Assembly (NCBI RefSeq): GCF_006345805.1
Contig: NC_043010.1
Span: 19,654,001-19,718,000 of the forward strand
Direction of reading: 5' to 3'
Length of the DNA: 64,000 nucleotides
Origin: Octopus sinensis
Lineage: Eukaryota
Positions 48,743-64,000 of this stretch are shown here, piece by piece. How positions within the stretch are numbered: the stretch's first letter is position 1; each line of letters opens with the position of its first letter. Below the pieces are notes generated by a model. That model searched no databases. It was not told the origin of the DNA and saw nothing but the letters and a program-made list of their open reading frames with translations. A program made the position numbers and the translations under genes.

Positions 48743-51357
48743 CTATGTGCAGTAGTATTATACAAAGGTACAGGTATTATACAAAGGCTGCTACAAAGGT
48801 AAAGGTGATGCCTTAGATAGAAACCACTCCAGGGGTATCAAACTACTGGACCAGGTCATGAAAGTTACCAAGAGAGTTATAGCTTTCAACTGATTAGAAA
48901 TAGAATTAAACTAGATGAGATGCAGTTTGGTTTTGTACCTGGGAAGAGTACCACTGATGCCATCTTTCTAGTGAGGCAGTTTCAGGAAGAGTTTTTGGCC
49001 ATTGTACTTAGCTTTGTATTTAGCTTTCATTGAGCTGGAGAAAGCTTTCAACAGAGTCTCATGTTCTGTTATATGGTGGTCTCTAAGGAAGCTAGGTGTA
49101 GAGGAGTAGCTTGTTAGAGCTGTACAAGCCATTTACACAGGTGTTATCAGTAAGGTGAGAGGAGTCGGCCATGGATACAGTGATGAATTGAGCTTACAGG
49201 TAGGGGTTCACAAGGGCTCAGTTCTCAGTTCACTCCTATTCATTATAGTCCTTCAGGCCATAACAGAGGAATTCAAAACTGGATGCCCATGGGAACTATT
49301 ATACACTGATGACCTCACTCTTATTGCAGAATCTGTAATGGAATTGGAGAAGAAATTCTAGGTGTGGAAGCAAAATCCAGAATCAAAGGGCTTTAAAATT
49401 AACCAAGCTAAAACCAAAGTCGTTGTTAGCAAGAGAGCAGATAAGACTCCATTTCTGTCAAACAAATGGCACTTGCTCAATTCGTAGGAAAGGAAGTAAT
49501 TCCATTTGCTGCACCAAATGTGAGCTATGGACACACAAGAGATGCAGTGGAATCACAGGTAGATTAAGAGATAAAGTTGTCTTTGTATGTGGCAGATGTG
49601 AAGGAACAATAATCACTAAGAGCACATGGAGGAGATTATACTCTGTCAAATGCCCAGGAGGCTCTCTTCATGGAGTAGATAGTTTCTGTTGCCTAGGTGA
49701 CCAGATTAGCAATTATGATGGATGCTCTGAAAGTATTGTTTCTAGAATACAAACAGGCTGGAGAAAGTTGAGAGAGCTCCTACCTGTGTTGGTGACAAAA
49801 GGTAGATTGTATGATGCTTGAGTACAAATGTACTCCATGTCCTCTGAATGCAGCGGACATGCATAGACTGGAGAGGAATGAAAGCAGTTTGCTCCACTGG
49901 ATGTGCAGCATCAATGTGCATGAACGACAAAGCACAAATGTATTGAGAGAAAAGTTGAGCACAAGAGGATCAAATGCAGGAAAGAAGACTACGTTGATTT
50001 GGACATGTGGATGAAGACAGCTGTATAAAGAAGTGGTGGTCATTGGAAGTAGATGGCACTTGTGGAAGAGGGAGATCGAGGACGATGTGGGATGAAGTGG
50101 TGAGGACCAATCTCAGGATGTTGGGGCTCACGGAGGAAATGACAATGGACTGAGGTGTCTGGCAATATGAGGTTCTCGAGAATACCCACCCACATCAGTG
50201 AAACTGGGTTCTGGAAGCATTGTGTTCCACCCACACAAAACAATAAAATTTTCACACCCAAACAAACTCGACCCCCCCTCCTCTGCCAAGTTGTTTCTCT
50301 TCTTCATACACTTTGGTTATTTTCCACCCTTGAATCCAGTCTTCCCTACCCTGCTGCTCATTGGGTTTGTTGCATCCCCTCCCCCTCTGTACCCAGATTC
50401 TCACCAGTCACAGCATTCTTCACCCCCACTCACTACTCATTGGCAATATCCTACCAGTACCTACCACCATTCATTCCATTCTTCCTTATTCTACCATCCC
50501 ATCTATGCTCTGACCCCTGTTCCTTGTGAGTATACCTCAGCACTTACTGCCATCCTGCTCCTGCTGTCTCCTACTCTCTCTCTATTTCCCTTGCTCTTCT
50601 CCTCTAAAACAACAAATCTGTTTCTGTCCTCATTCTTGATCACTCTCTCTCTCACTCTCTCTCCCTCATCCTTTTGCTTTTACCTCTGGCTAAGTAACCA
50701 TGTCCCTCCTCTTCAGCAACACTCCTCTTTCTTGTTCACTCCTCCTGTCTCTGGAGGTAACCATGTCCCTCCTATTCAGCAGCACAACTGATTCTGCCCT
50801 CATTCTTGTTGACACTTGCTCTCTTCCCTTCCTCTCTCTCTCTCCTCCCCCTCTCTTCCCCTCCCTCTCTTCTCCTTCCTCTCTTCCTCTCCCACTCTTC
50901 CTCTCCCTCTCTACCTCTTTCTCACTGGGTAACCATGTAACTCTTCTGCAGCAAGAGATCTGTTTCTCTCTCTCTCTCTCTTTATCTCTCTAACCTTTCA
51001 TCATCTAAAACAAGATCACCTCCTCCAATGCCCCTCTCTCCTCTCAAAGATTCTCTGTCTTGCAAAGTCACTTGGTGCCCCCCCCCCACCTACCAGTGCA
51101 GGTGCCACTTAAAAAGCACCTAGTACACGCTGTAAAGTGGCTGGCATTTAGAAGGGCATCCAGCTGTAAAAAAGTATGCTGAAACTGACCTTGCCGGTGC
51201 AAGTGCGATGCAAAAGGAATGCAGCCCTTTCCATGGAGTGGTTAGAGTTAGAAAGAGCATTCAACTGTAAAAAAAGGGCCAAAACAGACATAGAAGCATG
51301 TGGCAGGCTCCTGCCTGGCCAGCATGGAAGTAGGACATTAAACAATGAGGATGATTA
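47695..51357 (+). mobile_element. 5'-truncated, decayed RTE LINE: end of APE, RT, PHD-like finger, C-terminus, CT-rich 3' UTR and tail
   Basis: RLLEFCD, IDYLL, QHRLLVSDF (APE); KAPGPSGI, YKGKGD, QFGFVPGKSTTDAIF, GVHKGSVLS.LLF, LLYTDDL (RT); multiple stops and frameshifts; TA insert near 48700. Confidence 0.92.
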
Positions 51358-57738: not shown

Positions 57739-58633
57739 ACAGCAAAATGACTTTGAAGGACCAAATTTTGAGAAATGCAGCAGAATTTAGAAAGTGTGTT
57801 GTTTCAATATTTACACTACATGTTTATGTTATAAACCATGTCGACTTGTATGCCACAAAATACAGAATAAACAGAATTAGTTGTATTCATAAAAGTATTA
57901 CAAATCACCTGCAGCCACCTGTTAAAATGTCCAGTTGATAGCTTCTTCACAGCAGTTCCGTAGTCCATACTTCACCTTGGATAATCAGTAAATAAAAGGA
58001 AATGCAATAAAGACAGAGACACAGGAGTCTACACAACAACAACAACTACAAGACTTATTAGAAAAGGAATATGTGTTTATTATATCACCACATTCTGTCA
58101 ACATATTACATAACACTCTGTGGTTACACCTCACCATCCTGGGGAGGGACACATTGCCACACTGGAGGAGTAACATACATTACCACAGCAAGGGATGAGA
58201 TCTCATCAATGCATTCTGTATCACCTGTTACATTTACAGATAAATATTGTCATTAATGACCAAAATTTGGTGTCATTCAGACTCAACACTGGGTTCTGAG
58301 TTGTTTACTCTCTGTTATATTGTATGATATATAACCAATGTAATATAATATACTATAACACCTTAATAGTTGTGTGTGCGTGTGTATGTTAAAGTGTACA
58401 ATATTTTATATCCATTATGTTCAATTTTACCAGTCCCAATTGGTAAGATTGTCTACCATGGATATATAATACTGTACACTTTAATATACCCACTCTATTG
58501 ACAATATGGGTGAAGATTTTTTCTCACTACTGGATTTTTAGCTATATGTGTGTGTGTGTCTGATTGTATGATGACGGGAATATAAGAGGGACCTGTTTAT
58601 CTTGTCAATTTGCAGCAACTGCCTTTCTGGTCT

Positions 58634-58681
58634 CTGCTGCTGAAGAGGAGATAACCATGCTGAAATGCATGCATCCACCAG
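58634..58681 (+). ncRNA. Type I hammerhead-ribozyme-like motif with intact core
   Basis: CUGCUG-CUGAAGA-GG...CU-GAAA-UGCAUGCA-UC-CACCAG; stem I 5/6 paired, palindromic stem III. Confidence 0.55.
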
Positions 58682-59984
58682 TCAGGTTAGGGAATGCTGC
58701 AAGCTGACTCACTGTATTTAACACCTATTTGTCTATAGCAAGAAATTTTCTCCACCATCACAAAATACAGTGAATGGCTTTCTTGTGGGTTCAAATATGC
58801 CAGAAGCATATTTGAACTGATACCAAATGTGTGTACACACGCACGTGTGTGTACATCTACCAGACTTTAGAGCCTGGAACCATGTCGAAGATCTTCCTTT
58901 ATATGGTGGATGTTAGGTATTATAATTTGTTCTTGGTTGAGAACTTCTTTTGCAGTTGCCTCCCTAGAAAGAGGGTCTTAGTGGTTCTACATCAAAGACA
59001 AACCCAAACTACGCCTCATCTATGATCTCTTCTTGAATAACTTTGCTATAATTCTTTCTGCAACTTTCAGGTTATCAAGAAAGGATCGCGATGGGTGGAG
59101 GGAAAAATACCCCTAGTTAGAGGGAAGTCTCCCAACTAGCCCTCCTTTTAATTATATTCACAGCCATTTTTCATAAAGTGGTAAGTTTCCCTCCCTCTGA
59201 AGTGATTCTATTCAAATAGCTCTTTAAATGGGCTGGTCCACATATCATTCACACCAAGCTTATGGAAGGAGTTTACTCCAGTCAAAGAAGACTTCCGAAA
59301 TAGAGAACATATGACACTCCTTACTCTTCAGTCACTGCTTTTTGAGATGGACTCCTTCCTCATTGATGAGTAGTATCCTCCTCCTTCCTACTGCACTGCT
59401 ACCATGATGGCATCTGCTTTAGTTAACTAGCTACTTACATTATCACCTCTATCCAATACACTTGTCTCTCCATTCTTCCACTCGGGCCCAGCACCGACCA
59501 ATATCTCCCATTCTTCCTCTTTTGAACATTGTTTCTTTGTAGTTCTAACCCAGTCAGGTTTTTCCTCCGTATTAAATATCGAGTGACATTCACCATCCTA
59601 TGAGCACTTGTCAAGGCTACGGTTTCTAACCCTTCCTTAATAATCTTAAAATATTCCCCAGCAAAGAAGGAAGTTTGACTATTCATCAGAAATCATAGAG
59701 AAGTCAAAGGATCCATTCTTAATTTCAGGTTTTCAAGTGTAATGTAGTTGAAATCATCTGGTTCCATATTCCAACACCACTCCAGCTTTTATTAGGATTT
59801 CTTTGACCTCACTTAGAAGTCCTCACCCATTCTGCTCTGAAGACCAATTTCCCTGATTTCATTATCTTCATCATCAGAAACGATGAGGTTGAAATCCTTC
59901 AAACAAGTTGGTCGCTCTCCTTATCTTGGAAGTTTTCATTCCAACAAATGCTTTTCCAAAAAGAATGTGAAGCACAGAATTGGA

Positions 59985-60560
59985 TTAGCCCATTAAGTAT
60001 TTGAAAAACAGGGCAAAATAAGCTTTTAAGAACAAATATCTAAGCACTGCCACCCAAAAATTAAACTGATGGTTTACCAAGATGACATCATCTGAACCTC
60101 ATTATGTGGTTGCAAAACATGGACACTTTACTGGTGGGAAATCAAAAAACTGGAGTGTTTCCATCAACAGAAGCTCTGTGCCATCATCAACAACAAATAG
60201 GAGGATTACAAACACCAGCAGATGAAGCATAAAATCAACCCTGATTAAACACCAGCTACAATGATCAAGACTTGTGATTAAAACGTAACAAATGAGATTT
60301 CCCTCATTTAATTCTCTTGAATGGATTAATTATGAGGGAAAGGCCATGAGGATGACTCTTTCACTGTTACAAAGATCAGCAAAAAGAAAAATCAGACTTC
60401 AAAATGGCTGGAATTGAGATGAAAATGTGGGGAACTGAGGCCTAGAACTGTTCCAACTGGCAGCACTGCATCATCATTGGAACTGACCATGTTTTGAAGT
60501 CAGAAGAAAAAGAAAAGTTGAAAAATGTAAAGAAGACAAGACATCTTTCTGCCTTTTGAG
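59985..60560 (+). mobile_element. Decayed BovB-like RTE C-terminal fragment
   Basis: KLMVYQ...LCGCKTWTLYWWEIKKLECFHQQKLCAII resembles RTE LYGCETW...LEQFHQRCLR. Confidence 0.7.
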
Positions 60561-60690
60561 TTATCAACGCCAACATGGCGGACCCACTGAGATTGAAGTT
60601 CTTTTATACATACATATACACACATATTATATATACACACACATATATATAAATATATATATACACACACACACACATATATATATATAT

Positions 60691-60721
<31 letters not shown>

Positions 60722-60772
60722 CATATATACACACACATATATATACGGGTGTGTGTGATTGTGTATAGAAGA

Positions 60773-61100
60773 ATATATTAATAAAAGGAATTCCAACCTT
60801 GTCTGATTTTCACGTTTTATTTACAATCTTATAATGATATAATATAATATAATATAATAGAATAAAATGAAATAGTAGAATGTTAAATGTTCATTCTGAT
60901 TGAACTAGTACTTTCATGCATTAAATTCTGCAATCTTCTGAAGATTGCAGAATTTAATGCATGAAAGTACTAGTTCAATCAGAATGAACATTTAACATTC
61001 TACTATTTCATTTTATTCTATTATATTATATTGTATCATTATAAGATTGTAAATAAAACGTGAAAATCAAACAAGGTTGGAATTCCTTTTATTAATATAT
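60773..61100. repeat. Near-perfect ~330-bp palindrome (arms 166/161 bp, 1-nt spacer at 60939)
   Basis: Arms differ by two transitions and one 5-nt indel, all in the outer half. Confidence 0.97.
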
Positions 61101-61148
61101 ATATACATAAATATATACACACAAATATATATATATACACATATATAT

Positions 61149-61183
<35 letters not shown>

Positions 61184-61455
61184 GATACACATGGCCTAGT
61201 GGTAAAGGCATTGCACCCACGATCTAGTGATCGTGGGTTTGATTTCTGGATTGAGCAGTGTGTTGTGTTCTGTAGCGAAACACTTAATTTCATATTGCTA
61301 CAGTCCACTCAGCTGTAAACAGCTCACCCCCACAATGGATTAGTCTTCTGATCAGGGGCGAATGTTGGCCTGCTTGTCTTGCTAGTGGGGTGGCAGTATT
61401 CAAAAGCTAAAACGATGCAAAGCACACTGTGCCCAACAAGGGTCAATCACATGAT
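61184..61455 (+). mobile_element. SINE family D
   Basis: Colinear with 36369-36664. Confidence 0.7.
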
Positions 61456-61479
61456 CTACACACACACACGTTATTGGTT

Positions 61480-62040
61480 TGGTCTGAGGGAAAGTGTTGT
61501 GCCTATGGCCTCCAAGGCTTGGGTGATCAACTTCAACCTTGTTCCTGTTCAATATTTTGAAGTTGAAAGCTGCAAGAAAGTAATTCCCGTAGACGAACAT
61601 TCTGTGATGGAAGAGCTGAGCTGGGTAGAAGGGATTAAACAAAGCCAAAGAGGGTGGATATGGTGTAGGGAACTTAAGGAAAGTAAGCCAAAAGTCCCTG
61701 GGAGGGGTTGGCAAGAGACAATCAGCTCTGATAAAGCAGGGGCCACTATTTTAGCAATAGGAAAAAAAGCAGAAAGGAAGAGGAGATACAATATGTCTGC
61801 CTGAGGGTCAAAGGCTGAAGTTCATTGGCAAGCAATTTTCATATTCAAGGACATCTAAGGAAGAACTGTGTCTTGCTGGTGAGTGAGGAGGGTTCACCAT
61901 CCTTGTTCTAAATTCTGACACAGCTGCTAACTCCAAATTTGATAGGGCTTATGTTTTGACCCTACATTCAAGCCTCACTTCTGCCTGCTACGTCCACAAG
62001 GTTCCTAATGTAATATTGGTGACCATCAGAAAAGCTAAAG
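61480..62040 (-). mobile_element. Decayed L2/CR1-group LINE fragment
   Basis: PPRDFW...PPSL linker-like translation on the minus strand; no intact frame. Confidence 0.35.
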
Positions 62041-64000
62041 TATAATTCAATCTCATGGTCACACCCTACCCCAATATCAGTCATGTTAGCATGATTGATA
62101 CTGGGGTGTCAGTCATGTTAACATGATTAAAGTAAAACAAAAATACAATGTCACTCACATCCACATTAAGAGTAAACTACAAACTCATTCCTGTTCAAAT
62201 TAAGGGTACACTCCCATTACACCAGCCAATAAGGGAACCTCTATGTGGTTGAATGACTCTCTAGAAACAGCAGCAAAATATCCCTCAAATCACACATTCA
62301 GCACAAAAGTGAAAGGACACATTGGAGGACAGTATAGGTTTAAATGGGTCTGGAAAAGAAAAAAGGATAACATGGCCATGGTTAGAATGTCTTTGATCAC
62401 AGGTCAGCCTAATAGTGGTTGACCTAGGGTGAAACACCACCATTTCACTGCCATTCACATTGTTGTTGGTGGTGATGATGATGATGATGATGGTGATGAT
62501 AAAAAATACAACAGCAACAACATAAAAATAAAACTGAAGGTTCTGCTTTAATGGCTGCCTCACATAAAAAACAAAGTAAAAATATAAACAAAAAGAGGGG
62601 GAGGTAATGCAGTTTATACATACAGAGAGGGGGAAAGATAGAGAGAGAGTGTGTGTGTGTGCAGAAGTGTATATCGTTATGTGAATATACAGTCATCTAC
62701 ATAAATATATAAATGCATACAAACAGGAGTATCTATTAATTTATTTACTCATGATTCGAATGAGTTGCTACTCAGAGTTACTTGGTTTGATTGCAAACCC
62801 TTCGGACGACAGCAAAATGATATTTTGTTGTCATCCAACAGATTGCATCTGAGTGAGAAACTCAGAGTTGCAACAGCATGAATTACCAGTTTCATTGACA
62901 TCAAAACAAAATCCTTTAAAACATTTATTGAATATTCTTGCTTGTGAAACCAAAACTCTGCGTGTGTGGGTGTGCATGTGTGTGTGAGGGTGCATGTGTG
63001 TCTTGCTATTTAAAGAGGAATCTGTCCACCACTGAAACCACCATCAGAATGTCCGTTCCCTACATTCGCACTTTGTGGATGGGGAGTGGAGAAAGAAGCA
63101 GTGTAGGTCCCACTGCAGTGATATGTAAATATACAGGACATTACCTCCTCAATGTCAGACAAAAGGTGAAAGGTTAAGAGCAAAGAGGGCTCTCCCTGTG
63201 TTTGAGAAAAACTGACAGATCAGCAAGCGGGTATGTCCATACACACACACACACACACAGAAATAAAATGACTGTGTACCTAGCTGTAAGCATATCCTTT
63301 GACTGGTTCCTAACATGGCACTGTGGCCATGCTGGGGCATTGTCTTTTAAGGTTCATTTCATTACATTGACTCCATTATTTCTTTCATTGTGCTTTGGGG
63401 AATGATGACGGTAAAGTGGAGCTAAGATTGAAATCAGAACACTCGTTATTAATTCTGTCGCACACCTTGCTGCTTCTGCTGTCAACCTACCATAAATATA
63501 CGGCAGGTTACAGTTTGTAAATAAAAGGTAGTACCCAATACATGACACAGTACTTATATATATATATGTATATATTAACATACAGAGACACACTTATGGT
63601 GAAGATAGAAAGCCAATCCAGCCATGGAGACTATAGGTGGTGAAACCCACAAAAACAAAACATGGTTGAATGTAGGAGAATGTAATGAGAACATAAGGAG
63701 CTTCGTTGCTCAGAAAGTTCATCATAGTTTGGATAGAGAAGAAATATGCTGGGAACATCTCAAGATGGAGAGTTCCTTGAAACACAGAGAAAGGGAATCT
63801 TCAGATTCGTATGGCCCTTGGTAAAAGCTGGGTCTGAATTTCAGAGAAATGTTAAATGCATGGAGATAGACTTTCAGTTTGACCAAAACCCCATCCACAG
63901 ATGTGAGTGTCCTGACTCTGAAGGAGGATGTAATAAGTTTGTCCAAACACAGGATAAAATTTAAAGACCAAATTTAATTTCTAAGCAACTCAGCCCCTGG

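What the first reader, a model, noticed from the sequence alone, without database searches (positions are those of the whole stretch)
60773..61100. ~330-bp palindrome whose axis sits on a hammerhead-like catalytic core
Seen: near-perfect arms with a 1-nt spacer. Across the centre the + strand reads CUGAAGA(60938-44)-U-UGCA-loop-UGCA-U-GAAA(60963-66)-GUAC-UA, with a palindromic stem III (AGUACU). The spacer T is the U of CUGA, so only the + strand has the core; the - strand reads CAGAAGA. The stem I 5' strand is missing, replaced by the fold-back. The two arm substitutions give one G-U and one A-C pair in RNA. Established: Penelope-like elements carry minimal hammerheads in pLTRs and form inverted pLTR arrangements. 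Inference: a fold-back made by template switching at the ribozyme, able to yield a long hairpin RNA (endo-siRNA or ADAR substrate) or a cruciform.
Basis: partly seen in the sequence, partly recalled or inferred. Interest (0 to 1): 0.72.

Follow-up and report, generated by a model that had tools for sequence, protein, structure and literature searches.

The report
Head-to-head Penelope stub cut in hammerhead
This mirror-image DNA is two short back-to-back end pieces of a common Penelope-type jumping gene, likely both copied from one RNA during a single insertion; that they meet inside the ribozyme motif is likely chance, and the ribozyme is predicted to be dead here.

Summary
The palindrome is real: arms 60773-60938 and 60940-61100, spacer T60939, 2 substitutions plus a 5-nt indel. 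It is two 5'-truncated pseudo-LTR ends of an abundant Penelope-like element (RT + CX4CxxC + GIY-YIG; 552 exact 3'-end matches) joined head to head in a TA/CA microsatellite. Parent copies carry a complete minimal hammerhead (stem I TGAAC/GTTCA); here stem I is lost and the hairpin outcompetes the fold. The left arm carries a 27-nt tail (60746-60772) that the right lacks; across the family 52 of 56 head-to-head pairs are tail/no-tail (48% expected), and arms share subfamily alleles. This fits priming of both target strands at two sites on one RNA, not fold-back at the ribozyme. The axis on CUGA is unique in the genome; no exact-match axis lies at the cleavage site, while 29 exact axes lie at a putative transcription start 44 nt upstream. 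Inverted pLTR plus one-sided tail is a published Penelope trait, and this scan has noted the same architecture many times on other DNA, including this genome. Ordinary locus; the family statistics are a modest, testable clue to Penelope integration.

The parts
60746..60772 (-). 27-nt AC-rich 'tail' of the Penelope element, present on the left arm only (distal 3' end, +163..+188 with C of CUGA = 0)
   Evidence: aligns to the 3' end of natural copy L065 and of 24 of 59 single copies
60773..60938 (-). left arm: 5'-truncated pLTR end, element positions +2..+162, antisense on + strand; hammerhead core broken (CAGAAGA)
60939..60939 (+). 1-nt spacer T = U4 of CUGA, belongs to the right arm; C60938 is shared by both arms (1-bp overlap)
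60938..61100 (+). right arm: 5'-truncated pLTR end, element positions 0..+162, without tail
60938..60977 (+). remnant minimal type I hammerhead: CUGAAGA, stem II UGCA/UGCA, GAAA, palindromic GUAC, UA, predicted cut after 60972, stem I 3' strand GUUCA; stem I 5' strand absent
60604..60745 (.). left (TA)n/(CA)n microsatellite target flank
61101..61185 (.). right (TA)n/(CA)n microsatellite target flank; a target duplication cannot be read in this low-complexity DNA

Best explanation
The palindrome is a head-to-head pair of 5'-truncated Penelope pLTR ends, one with and one without the tail, likely made in one insertion by twin target-primed reverse transcription on a single RNA. Shown: parentage, arm extents, one-sided tail, shared haplotype of the arms, microsatellite target. 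Inferred: the GIY-YIG endonuclease cut both strands of a (TA)n tract; one cut end primed at the distal site (+188), the other at the proximal site (+162); the enzyme, which has no RNase H domain (recalled), displaced one cDNA while making the other; both cDNAs ended at +1/+2, likely at a broken RNA 5' end, and were joined through a 1-bp C:G overlap; host repair filled the second strands. The ribozyme likely played no part, and this copy is predicted inactive because stem I is missing and the palindrome hairpin wins.
For: 52 of 56 pairs with two canonical 3' ends are tail/no-tail, 2 tail/tail, 2 no-tail/no-tail; 48% expected from 24 of 59 tailed single copies, p about 1e-12 (one pair reclassified by eye from NN to NT). 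Fold-back of tailless primary cDNAs would give many no-tail/no-tail pairs; 2 seen. In 15 of 51 discordant pairs neither arm contains the other, and one has exactly the tail (+160..+188) inverted against a tailless arm, the classic twin-priming junction. Arms of 43 pairs disagree at 10 comparisons over 6 subfamily sites against 76 by permutation (minimum 51 of 5000); a 23-nt haplotype occurs only in the two focal arms of 152. 109 private one-arm differences against 4 private shared ones argue against much gene conversion. In vitro, anole Poseidon cuts and extends both strands and starts at two adjacent sites that bound the tail, and needs no ribozyme cleavage (PMC11167929).
Against: At this locus alone the tailless arm lies within the tailed arm except for 1-2 nt, so fold-back is not excluded here. 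Unequal 5' ends could also come from later central deletions. Shared alleles cannot tell one RNA from two RNAs of one source locus; 2 of 43 pairs differ at two subfamily sites. The 2 no-tail/no-tail pairs mirror 9-17 nt of flank, so DNA-level copying does occur in a minority. The in vitro paper saw no difference in start site between strands, whereas the genomic pairs imply the two strands use different sites. The overlap at this junction is only 1 bp. 25 of the 56 pairs were fetched by an axis pattern or a similarity search; in the chromosome-order sample the split was 29 of 31 before the one reclassification.
Confidence: 0.7

Rival explanations
1. Self-priming or fold-back: one strand folded back and was copied into a hairpin, and endonuclease resolution left a tail on one end (the published reading; the first reader's version puts the switch at the ribozyme).
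For: Proposed in PMC3846280 (self-priming on an antisense template) and PMC8557442 (tail from EN-mediated resolution). 25 of 51 discordant pairs have 5' ends within 5 nt. 2 pairs mirror flank DNA and 1 tail/tail pair shares a private allele.
Against: A 1-nt loop with 1 bp is a poor primer; 26 of 51 pairs have 5' ends more than 5 nt apart, up to about 1000 nt; the ribozyme-specific version fails because the axis is unique and none lies at the cleavage site.
Confidence: 0.13
2. The insertion was twin-primed like the common type centred at -44, and later lost about 45 bp of each arm by a symmetric central deletion of the unstable palindrome.
For: 29 exact palindromes share the -44 axis; some carry internal deletions (L034, L055).
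Against: Needs symmetry to within 1-2 nt; only 2 of 56 pairs are symmetric off the hotspot, and the other one (+125/+126) has 3 inserted bases; arms here are young (2 substitutions, 1 indel).
Confidence: 0.1
3. Two separate RNAs from the same source locus were each copied from one cut end and joined.
For: 2 of 43 pairs differ at two subfamily sites.
Against: Does not by itself explain the strict tail/no-tail pairing or the coincidence of both 5' ends here.
Confidence: 0.05
4. Sequencing or assembly fold-back artefact.
For: No long reads seen; the junction contigs in X1 are inferred, and X6 has none.
Against: The arms differ in the tail, an indel and 2 substitutions in a family-typical way; unique flanks are different and present in 4 runs.
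Confidence: 0.02

Closest known systems
Inverted 5'-truncated pLTR plus one-sided 30-40 bp tail of endonuclease-positive Penelope-like elements (PMC3846280, passages read; PMC8557442, passages read)
   Same: Head-to-head pLTR copies, palindromic junction, tail on one end, (TA)n target, TATA/Inr-like motifs in the pLTR; locus L065 shows the full inverted-pLTR + pLTR-ORF-pLTR form.
   Different: Here both halves are stubs with no ORF, the tail is 26-27 nt, and the junction falls in the hammerhead core. The papers invoke self-priming or EN resolution; the counts here favour twin priming.
Poseidon_Ac (PAc) of Anolis carolinensis in vitro (PMC11167929, parts 1-2 of 4 read)
   Same: Both strands cut and extended, two start sites bounding an AC-rich tail downstream of the hammerhead, AT-rich target, ribozyme cleavage not needed.
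   Different: PAc is Penelope/Poseidon clade; this family has the CX4CxxC linker. PAc showed no strand difference in start site, while these pairs are tail/no-tail in 52 of 56.
Minimal type I hammerheads of metazoan PLEs (PMC4209133, passages read)
   Same: 5-bp helix I, unpaired base 5' of helix II, palindromic helix III, predicted dimer (cofold of the parent stretch pairs the GUAC region between two copies, -18.6 kcal/mol).
   Different: Helix II is 4 bp starting U-A rather than the usual G10.1-C11.1; this copy lacks helix I.
L1 twin priming (recalled, no paper read)
   Same: Inversion made by priming the second target strand on the same RNA, with microhomology at the junction.
   Different: In L1 the inverted piece is a different part of the RNA; here both pieces cover the same part, which needs strand displacement.

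Membership tests
EN+ Penelope-like element (parent family) | single ORF with RT and C-terminal GIY-YIG | tested here: met
   L065 pieces: RVT_1 E 4e-4 (below Pfam cut-off) and GIY-YIG E 6.7e-6 (above cut-off); YLDD and YVGQT seen in L065/L067 translations. Copies examined are frameshifted.
EN+ Penelope-like element (parent family) | pLTRs in partial tandem, inverted 5' copy, optional tail | tested here: met
   L065: inverted -202..+162, pLTR -257..+189, ORF, pLTR
EN+ Penelope-like element (parent family) | target-site duplication at this locus | tested here: inconclusive
   only low-complexity 15-nt matches in TA/CA flanks
Neptune/Nematis clades | CX2-5CxxC linker before GIY-YIG and CCHH motif | tested here: met
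   C-NDSR-C-GT-C, then CPNC and two later histidines in L067/L065; definition from PMC8557442
Neptune/Nematis clades | RT phylogeny separating Neptune from Nematis | not tested
   no reference set fetched
Minimal type I hammerhead (parent copies) | conserved core, helix I, helix II, palindromic helix III | tested here: met
   101 of 153 copies have the exact core; 132 of 153 have 5 of 5 helix I pairs. No covariation: copies are near identical. No Rfam hammerhead hit at E<=10 in 58000-64000.
Minimal type I hammerhead (this locus) | helix I and foldable core | tested here: not met
   5' strand absent; stem II pair probability 5e-20 against 0.9995 for the palindrome hairpin
Minimal type I hammerhead | self-cleavage | not testable with these tools
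   needs an assay
endo-siRNA or ADAR hairpin locus | read-through transcript, small RNAs or A-to-I sites | not testable with these tools
   only contigs, none on record as RNA

The most novel reading that the evidence does not exclude
Penelope elements insert as an asymmetric dimer in which each subunit is committed to one of the two start sites on a single RNA, both cDNAs run off the same RNA 5' end and are joined end to end; junction positions therefore map RNA 5' ends (start site at about -46/-44 in most copies, a break in the CUGA turn in this one). This would replace the self-priming model for Penelope inverted repeats.
Probability: 0.45. Interest if true: 0.55.

Novelty: new member of a known kind. 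Interest (0 to 1): 0.27.

Why it matters
How Penelope elements make their inverted repeats and tail is stated as open in PMC8557442. The near-strict tail/no-tail rule gives a direct prediction for the existing in vitro system. The locus itself is one stub among hundreds and shows no special link to the ribozyme; its only possible effect is as a 160-bp hairpin if transcribed, which is untested.

Tried and rejected
Rfam scan gave only sub-threshold microRNA matches from the hairpin shape. Second hit to the axis pattern (L031) is an unrelated 26-bp-arm palindrome. Ribozyme-cleavage templates: 0 exact head-to-head junctions around the cut site; 3 of 45 5' ends within 5 nt of it, 2.5 expected. Cap-copying as the cause of the -44 hotspot: among 48 TA-flanked 5' ends the base before ACAGTC was T 24, C 13, G 8, A 3 (my count); inconclusive. 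Which arm owns the spacer at the hotspot: 10 tailed, 9 tailless, no bias. Expression: no RNA holder on record; two RNA-guess runs gave no junction contig; no evidence either way. Host gene context: no Pfam family for 6 of 7 window ORFs tried, one weak PHD hit; whether the site is intronic is unknown. Literature: four searches found no paper joining Penelope with twin priming except one review on human elements (listing only); subscription papers and bioRxiv supplements were not visible. The retrozyme preprint 10.64898/2026.07.22.740005 has no passage on palindromes or tails (term search only). Rows dropped before the 56-pair count: of 76 inverted junctions, 16 lacked two canonical 3' ends, 2 were near-identical duplicates and 2 were second junctions of duplicated units; 6 single rows from 5 loci were left out as partners of pairs.

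Full report
Observation. The + strand has arms 60773-60938 and 60940-61100 around T60939. A gapped alignment gives two substitutions (G61033, A61070, both on the right arm) and one 5-nt indel. The left arm runs on for 27 nt (60746-60772) in element sequence that the right arm lacks. Both sides are TA/CA microsatellite.

Parent. One arm finds 1255 candidates in the own genome, 40 scored, 46 matches at 92-100%; a 26-nt 3'-end pattern has 552 exact matches. Long copies carry RT and GIY-YIG frames with a CX4CxxC linker, so this is an endonuclease-positive Penelope-like element of Neptune/Nematis type; the clade was not resolved by a tree. L065 shows the textbook form: inverted 5' copy, pLTR with tail, ORF, pLTR. 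Upstream of CTGAAGA the parents read ATGAAC, which pairs with GTTCA after the predicted cut: 132 of 153 copies have five of five helix I pairs and 101 the exact core. This fits the minimal dimeric hammerhead of PMC4209133 (passages). In the palindrome the 5' strand is gone and stem II has a pairing probability of 5e-20, so this copy is predicted dead.

How common is the arrangement. Of 81 loci anchored on the first 100 listed matches in chromosome order, 33 have a head-to-head pair with two 3' ends and 42 have some inversion (three are near-identical duplicates, loci with two ends are somewhat easier to sample, and some flanks were only 1.5 kb). The palindrome is therefore a usual product of this family. 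PMC8557442 and PMC3846280 describe the inverted 5' copy and the one-sided tail (passages).

Is the axis tied to the ribozyme. No. The exact axis pattern has two hits, and the second is unrelated DNA. A gapped pattern for any junction within about 30 nt around the core finds only this locus; the same for the cleavage site finds none. Both are exact-match searches and so lower bounds. In contrast 29 loci share an exact axis GAC-W-GTC at -44, 43 of 97 AT-preceded 5' ends at that place are inverted junctions (my count), and many single copies also start at -47..-43. TATTTA stands at -76 in 42 of 51 copies that reach it, with CCAAT at -165 and ATTGG at -128; reading -46/-44 as the Pol II start is an inference from spacing. 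Between -41 and +155, 5' ends are spread: 5 of 45 near the core, two of them this locus, 2.5 expected.

Mechanism. With numbering from C of CUGA, 3' ends fall at +162 (no tail) or +188 (tail). Single copies: 24 tailed, 35 not. Pairs: 52 tail/no-tail, 2 and 2. If a first cDNA folded back, tailless first cDNAs would give many no-tail/no-tail pairs. In 15 of 51 discordant pairs neither arm contains the other, in 11 the tailless arm is the shorter, in 25 they end within 5 nt; later deletions could explain some. Off-hotspot junctions show overlap in 12, inserted bases in 15 and blunt joins in 2 of 29. Arms share subfamily alleles far above chance (10 against 76 discordant comparisons) but have diverged separately since (3.1% within pairs, 4.4% between). 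The simplest account is that both ends of a cut TA tract prime on one RNA, one at each start site, as the anole element can do in vitro (PMC11167929), and that the two cDNA 3' ends are then joined. For this locus both ends stop at +1/+2 with a shared C, which suggests run-off from an RNA broken there; a later symmetric deletion or a true fold-back cannot be excluded for a single locus. Against a single rule: two pairs mirror flank DNA, and two differ at two subfamily sites.

Reads. Only short-read contigs were available. Four DNA-type runs hold both unique flanks. In X1, depth steps at 100% identity imply contigs that cross the axis; they are not listed individually and X1 may be the source sample; X6 shows none. 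An artefact is unlikely because the arms differ in the family-typical way.

Earlier notes. After forming this reading I looked up earlier findings: 342 hold the search words in at least 40 genomes and 235 fit in this genome; several reach the same twin-priming reading on other families. They are unchecked notes and no support; one gave the lead to PMC3846280. None matched this sequence. Notes call the genome an octopus; I did not test that.

Verdict. A real but ordinary Penelope insertion stub. Interest lies only in the family statistics.

Noticed in passing
G000 family copies, e.g. L039, L041, L052: A subfamily with CCGAAGA in place of CUGAAGA (27 of 153 copies, both arms in 9 pairs) has transposed repeatedly, so an intact core seems not to be needed for mobility.
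   Followed up: partly
L143 (G000:C3:13159935-13160275): Exactly the tail (+160..+188) is inverted against a tailless arm starting at -121: a non-overlapping twin-priming junction.
   Followed up: yes
L008/L009 (G000:C5:16759178-16759673): A short-tail-arm plus long-arm unit is itself mirrored across a TA tract, giving a four-piece palindrome.
   Followed up: partly
L046 and L060: The two no-tail/no-tail palindromes mirror 17 and 9 nt of non-microsatellite flank, suggesting DNA-level fold-back or conversion.
   Followed up: partly
L104, L105, L106 (C1:159.88-160.03 Mb); L142; L109: The same inverted insertion occurs three times within 150 kb, and two other loci hold tandem duplicates: local segmental duplication.
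   Followed up: no
L031 (G000:C7:6713523): An unrelated palindrome with 26-bp arms shares the central 21-mer of the focal axis.
   Followed up: partly
window 61192-61440: High-copy repeat with a tRNA-like start, likely a SINE, just right of the palindrome (very high summed depth at 61250-61435).
   Followed up: no
window 58380-58493: Older inverted repeat, 53-nt arms, 81% complementary, 8-nt spacer.
   Followed up: no
G000, 5' ends at -46: C precedes ACAGTC in 18 of 97 AT-preceded 5' junctions although the parent has T; unexplained.
   Followed up: partly
window 49339-49818: Frame with a weak PHD-finger match (E 3e-4, below cut-off), probably a LINE fragment.
   Followed up: no
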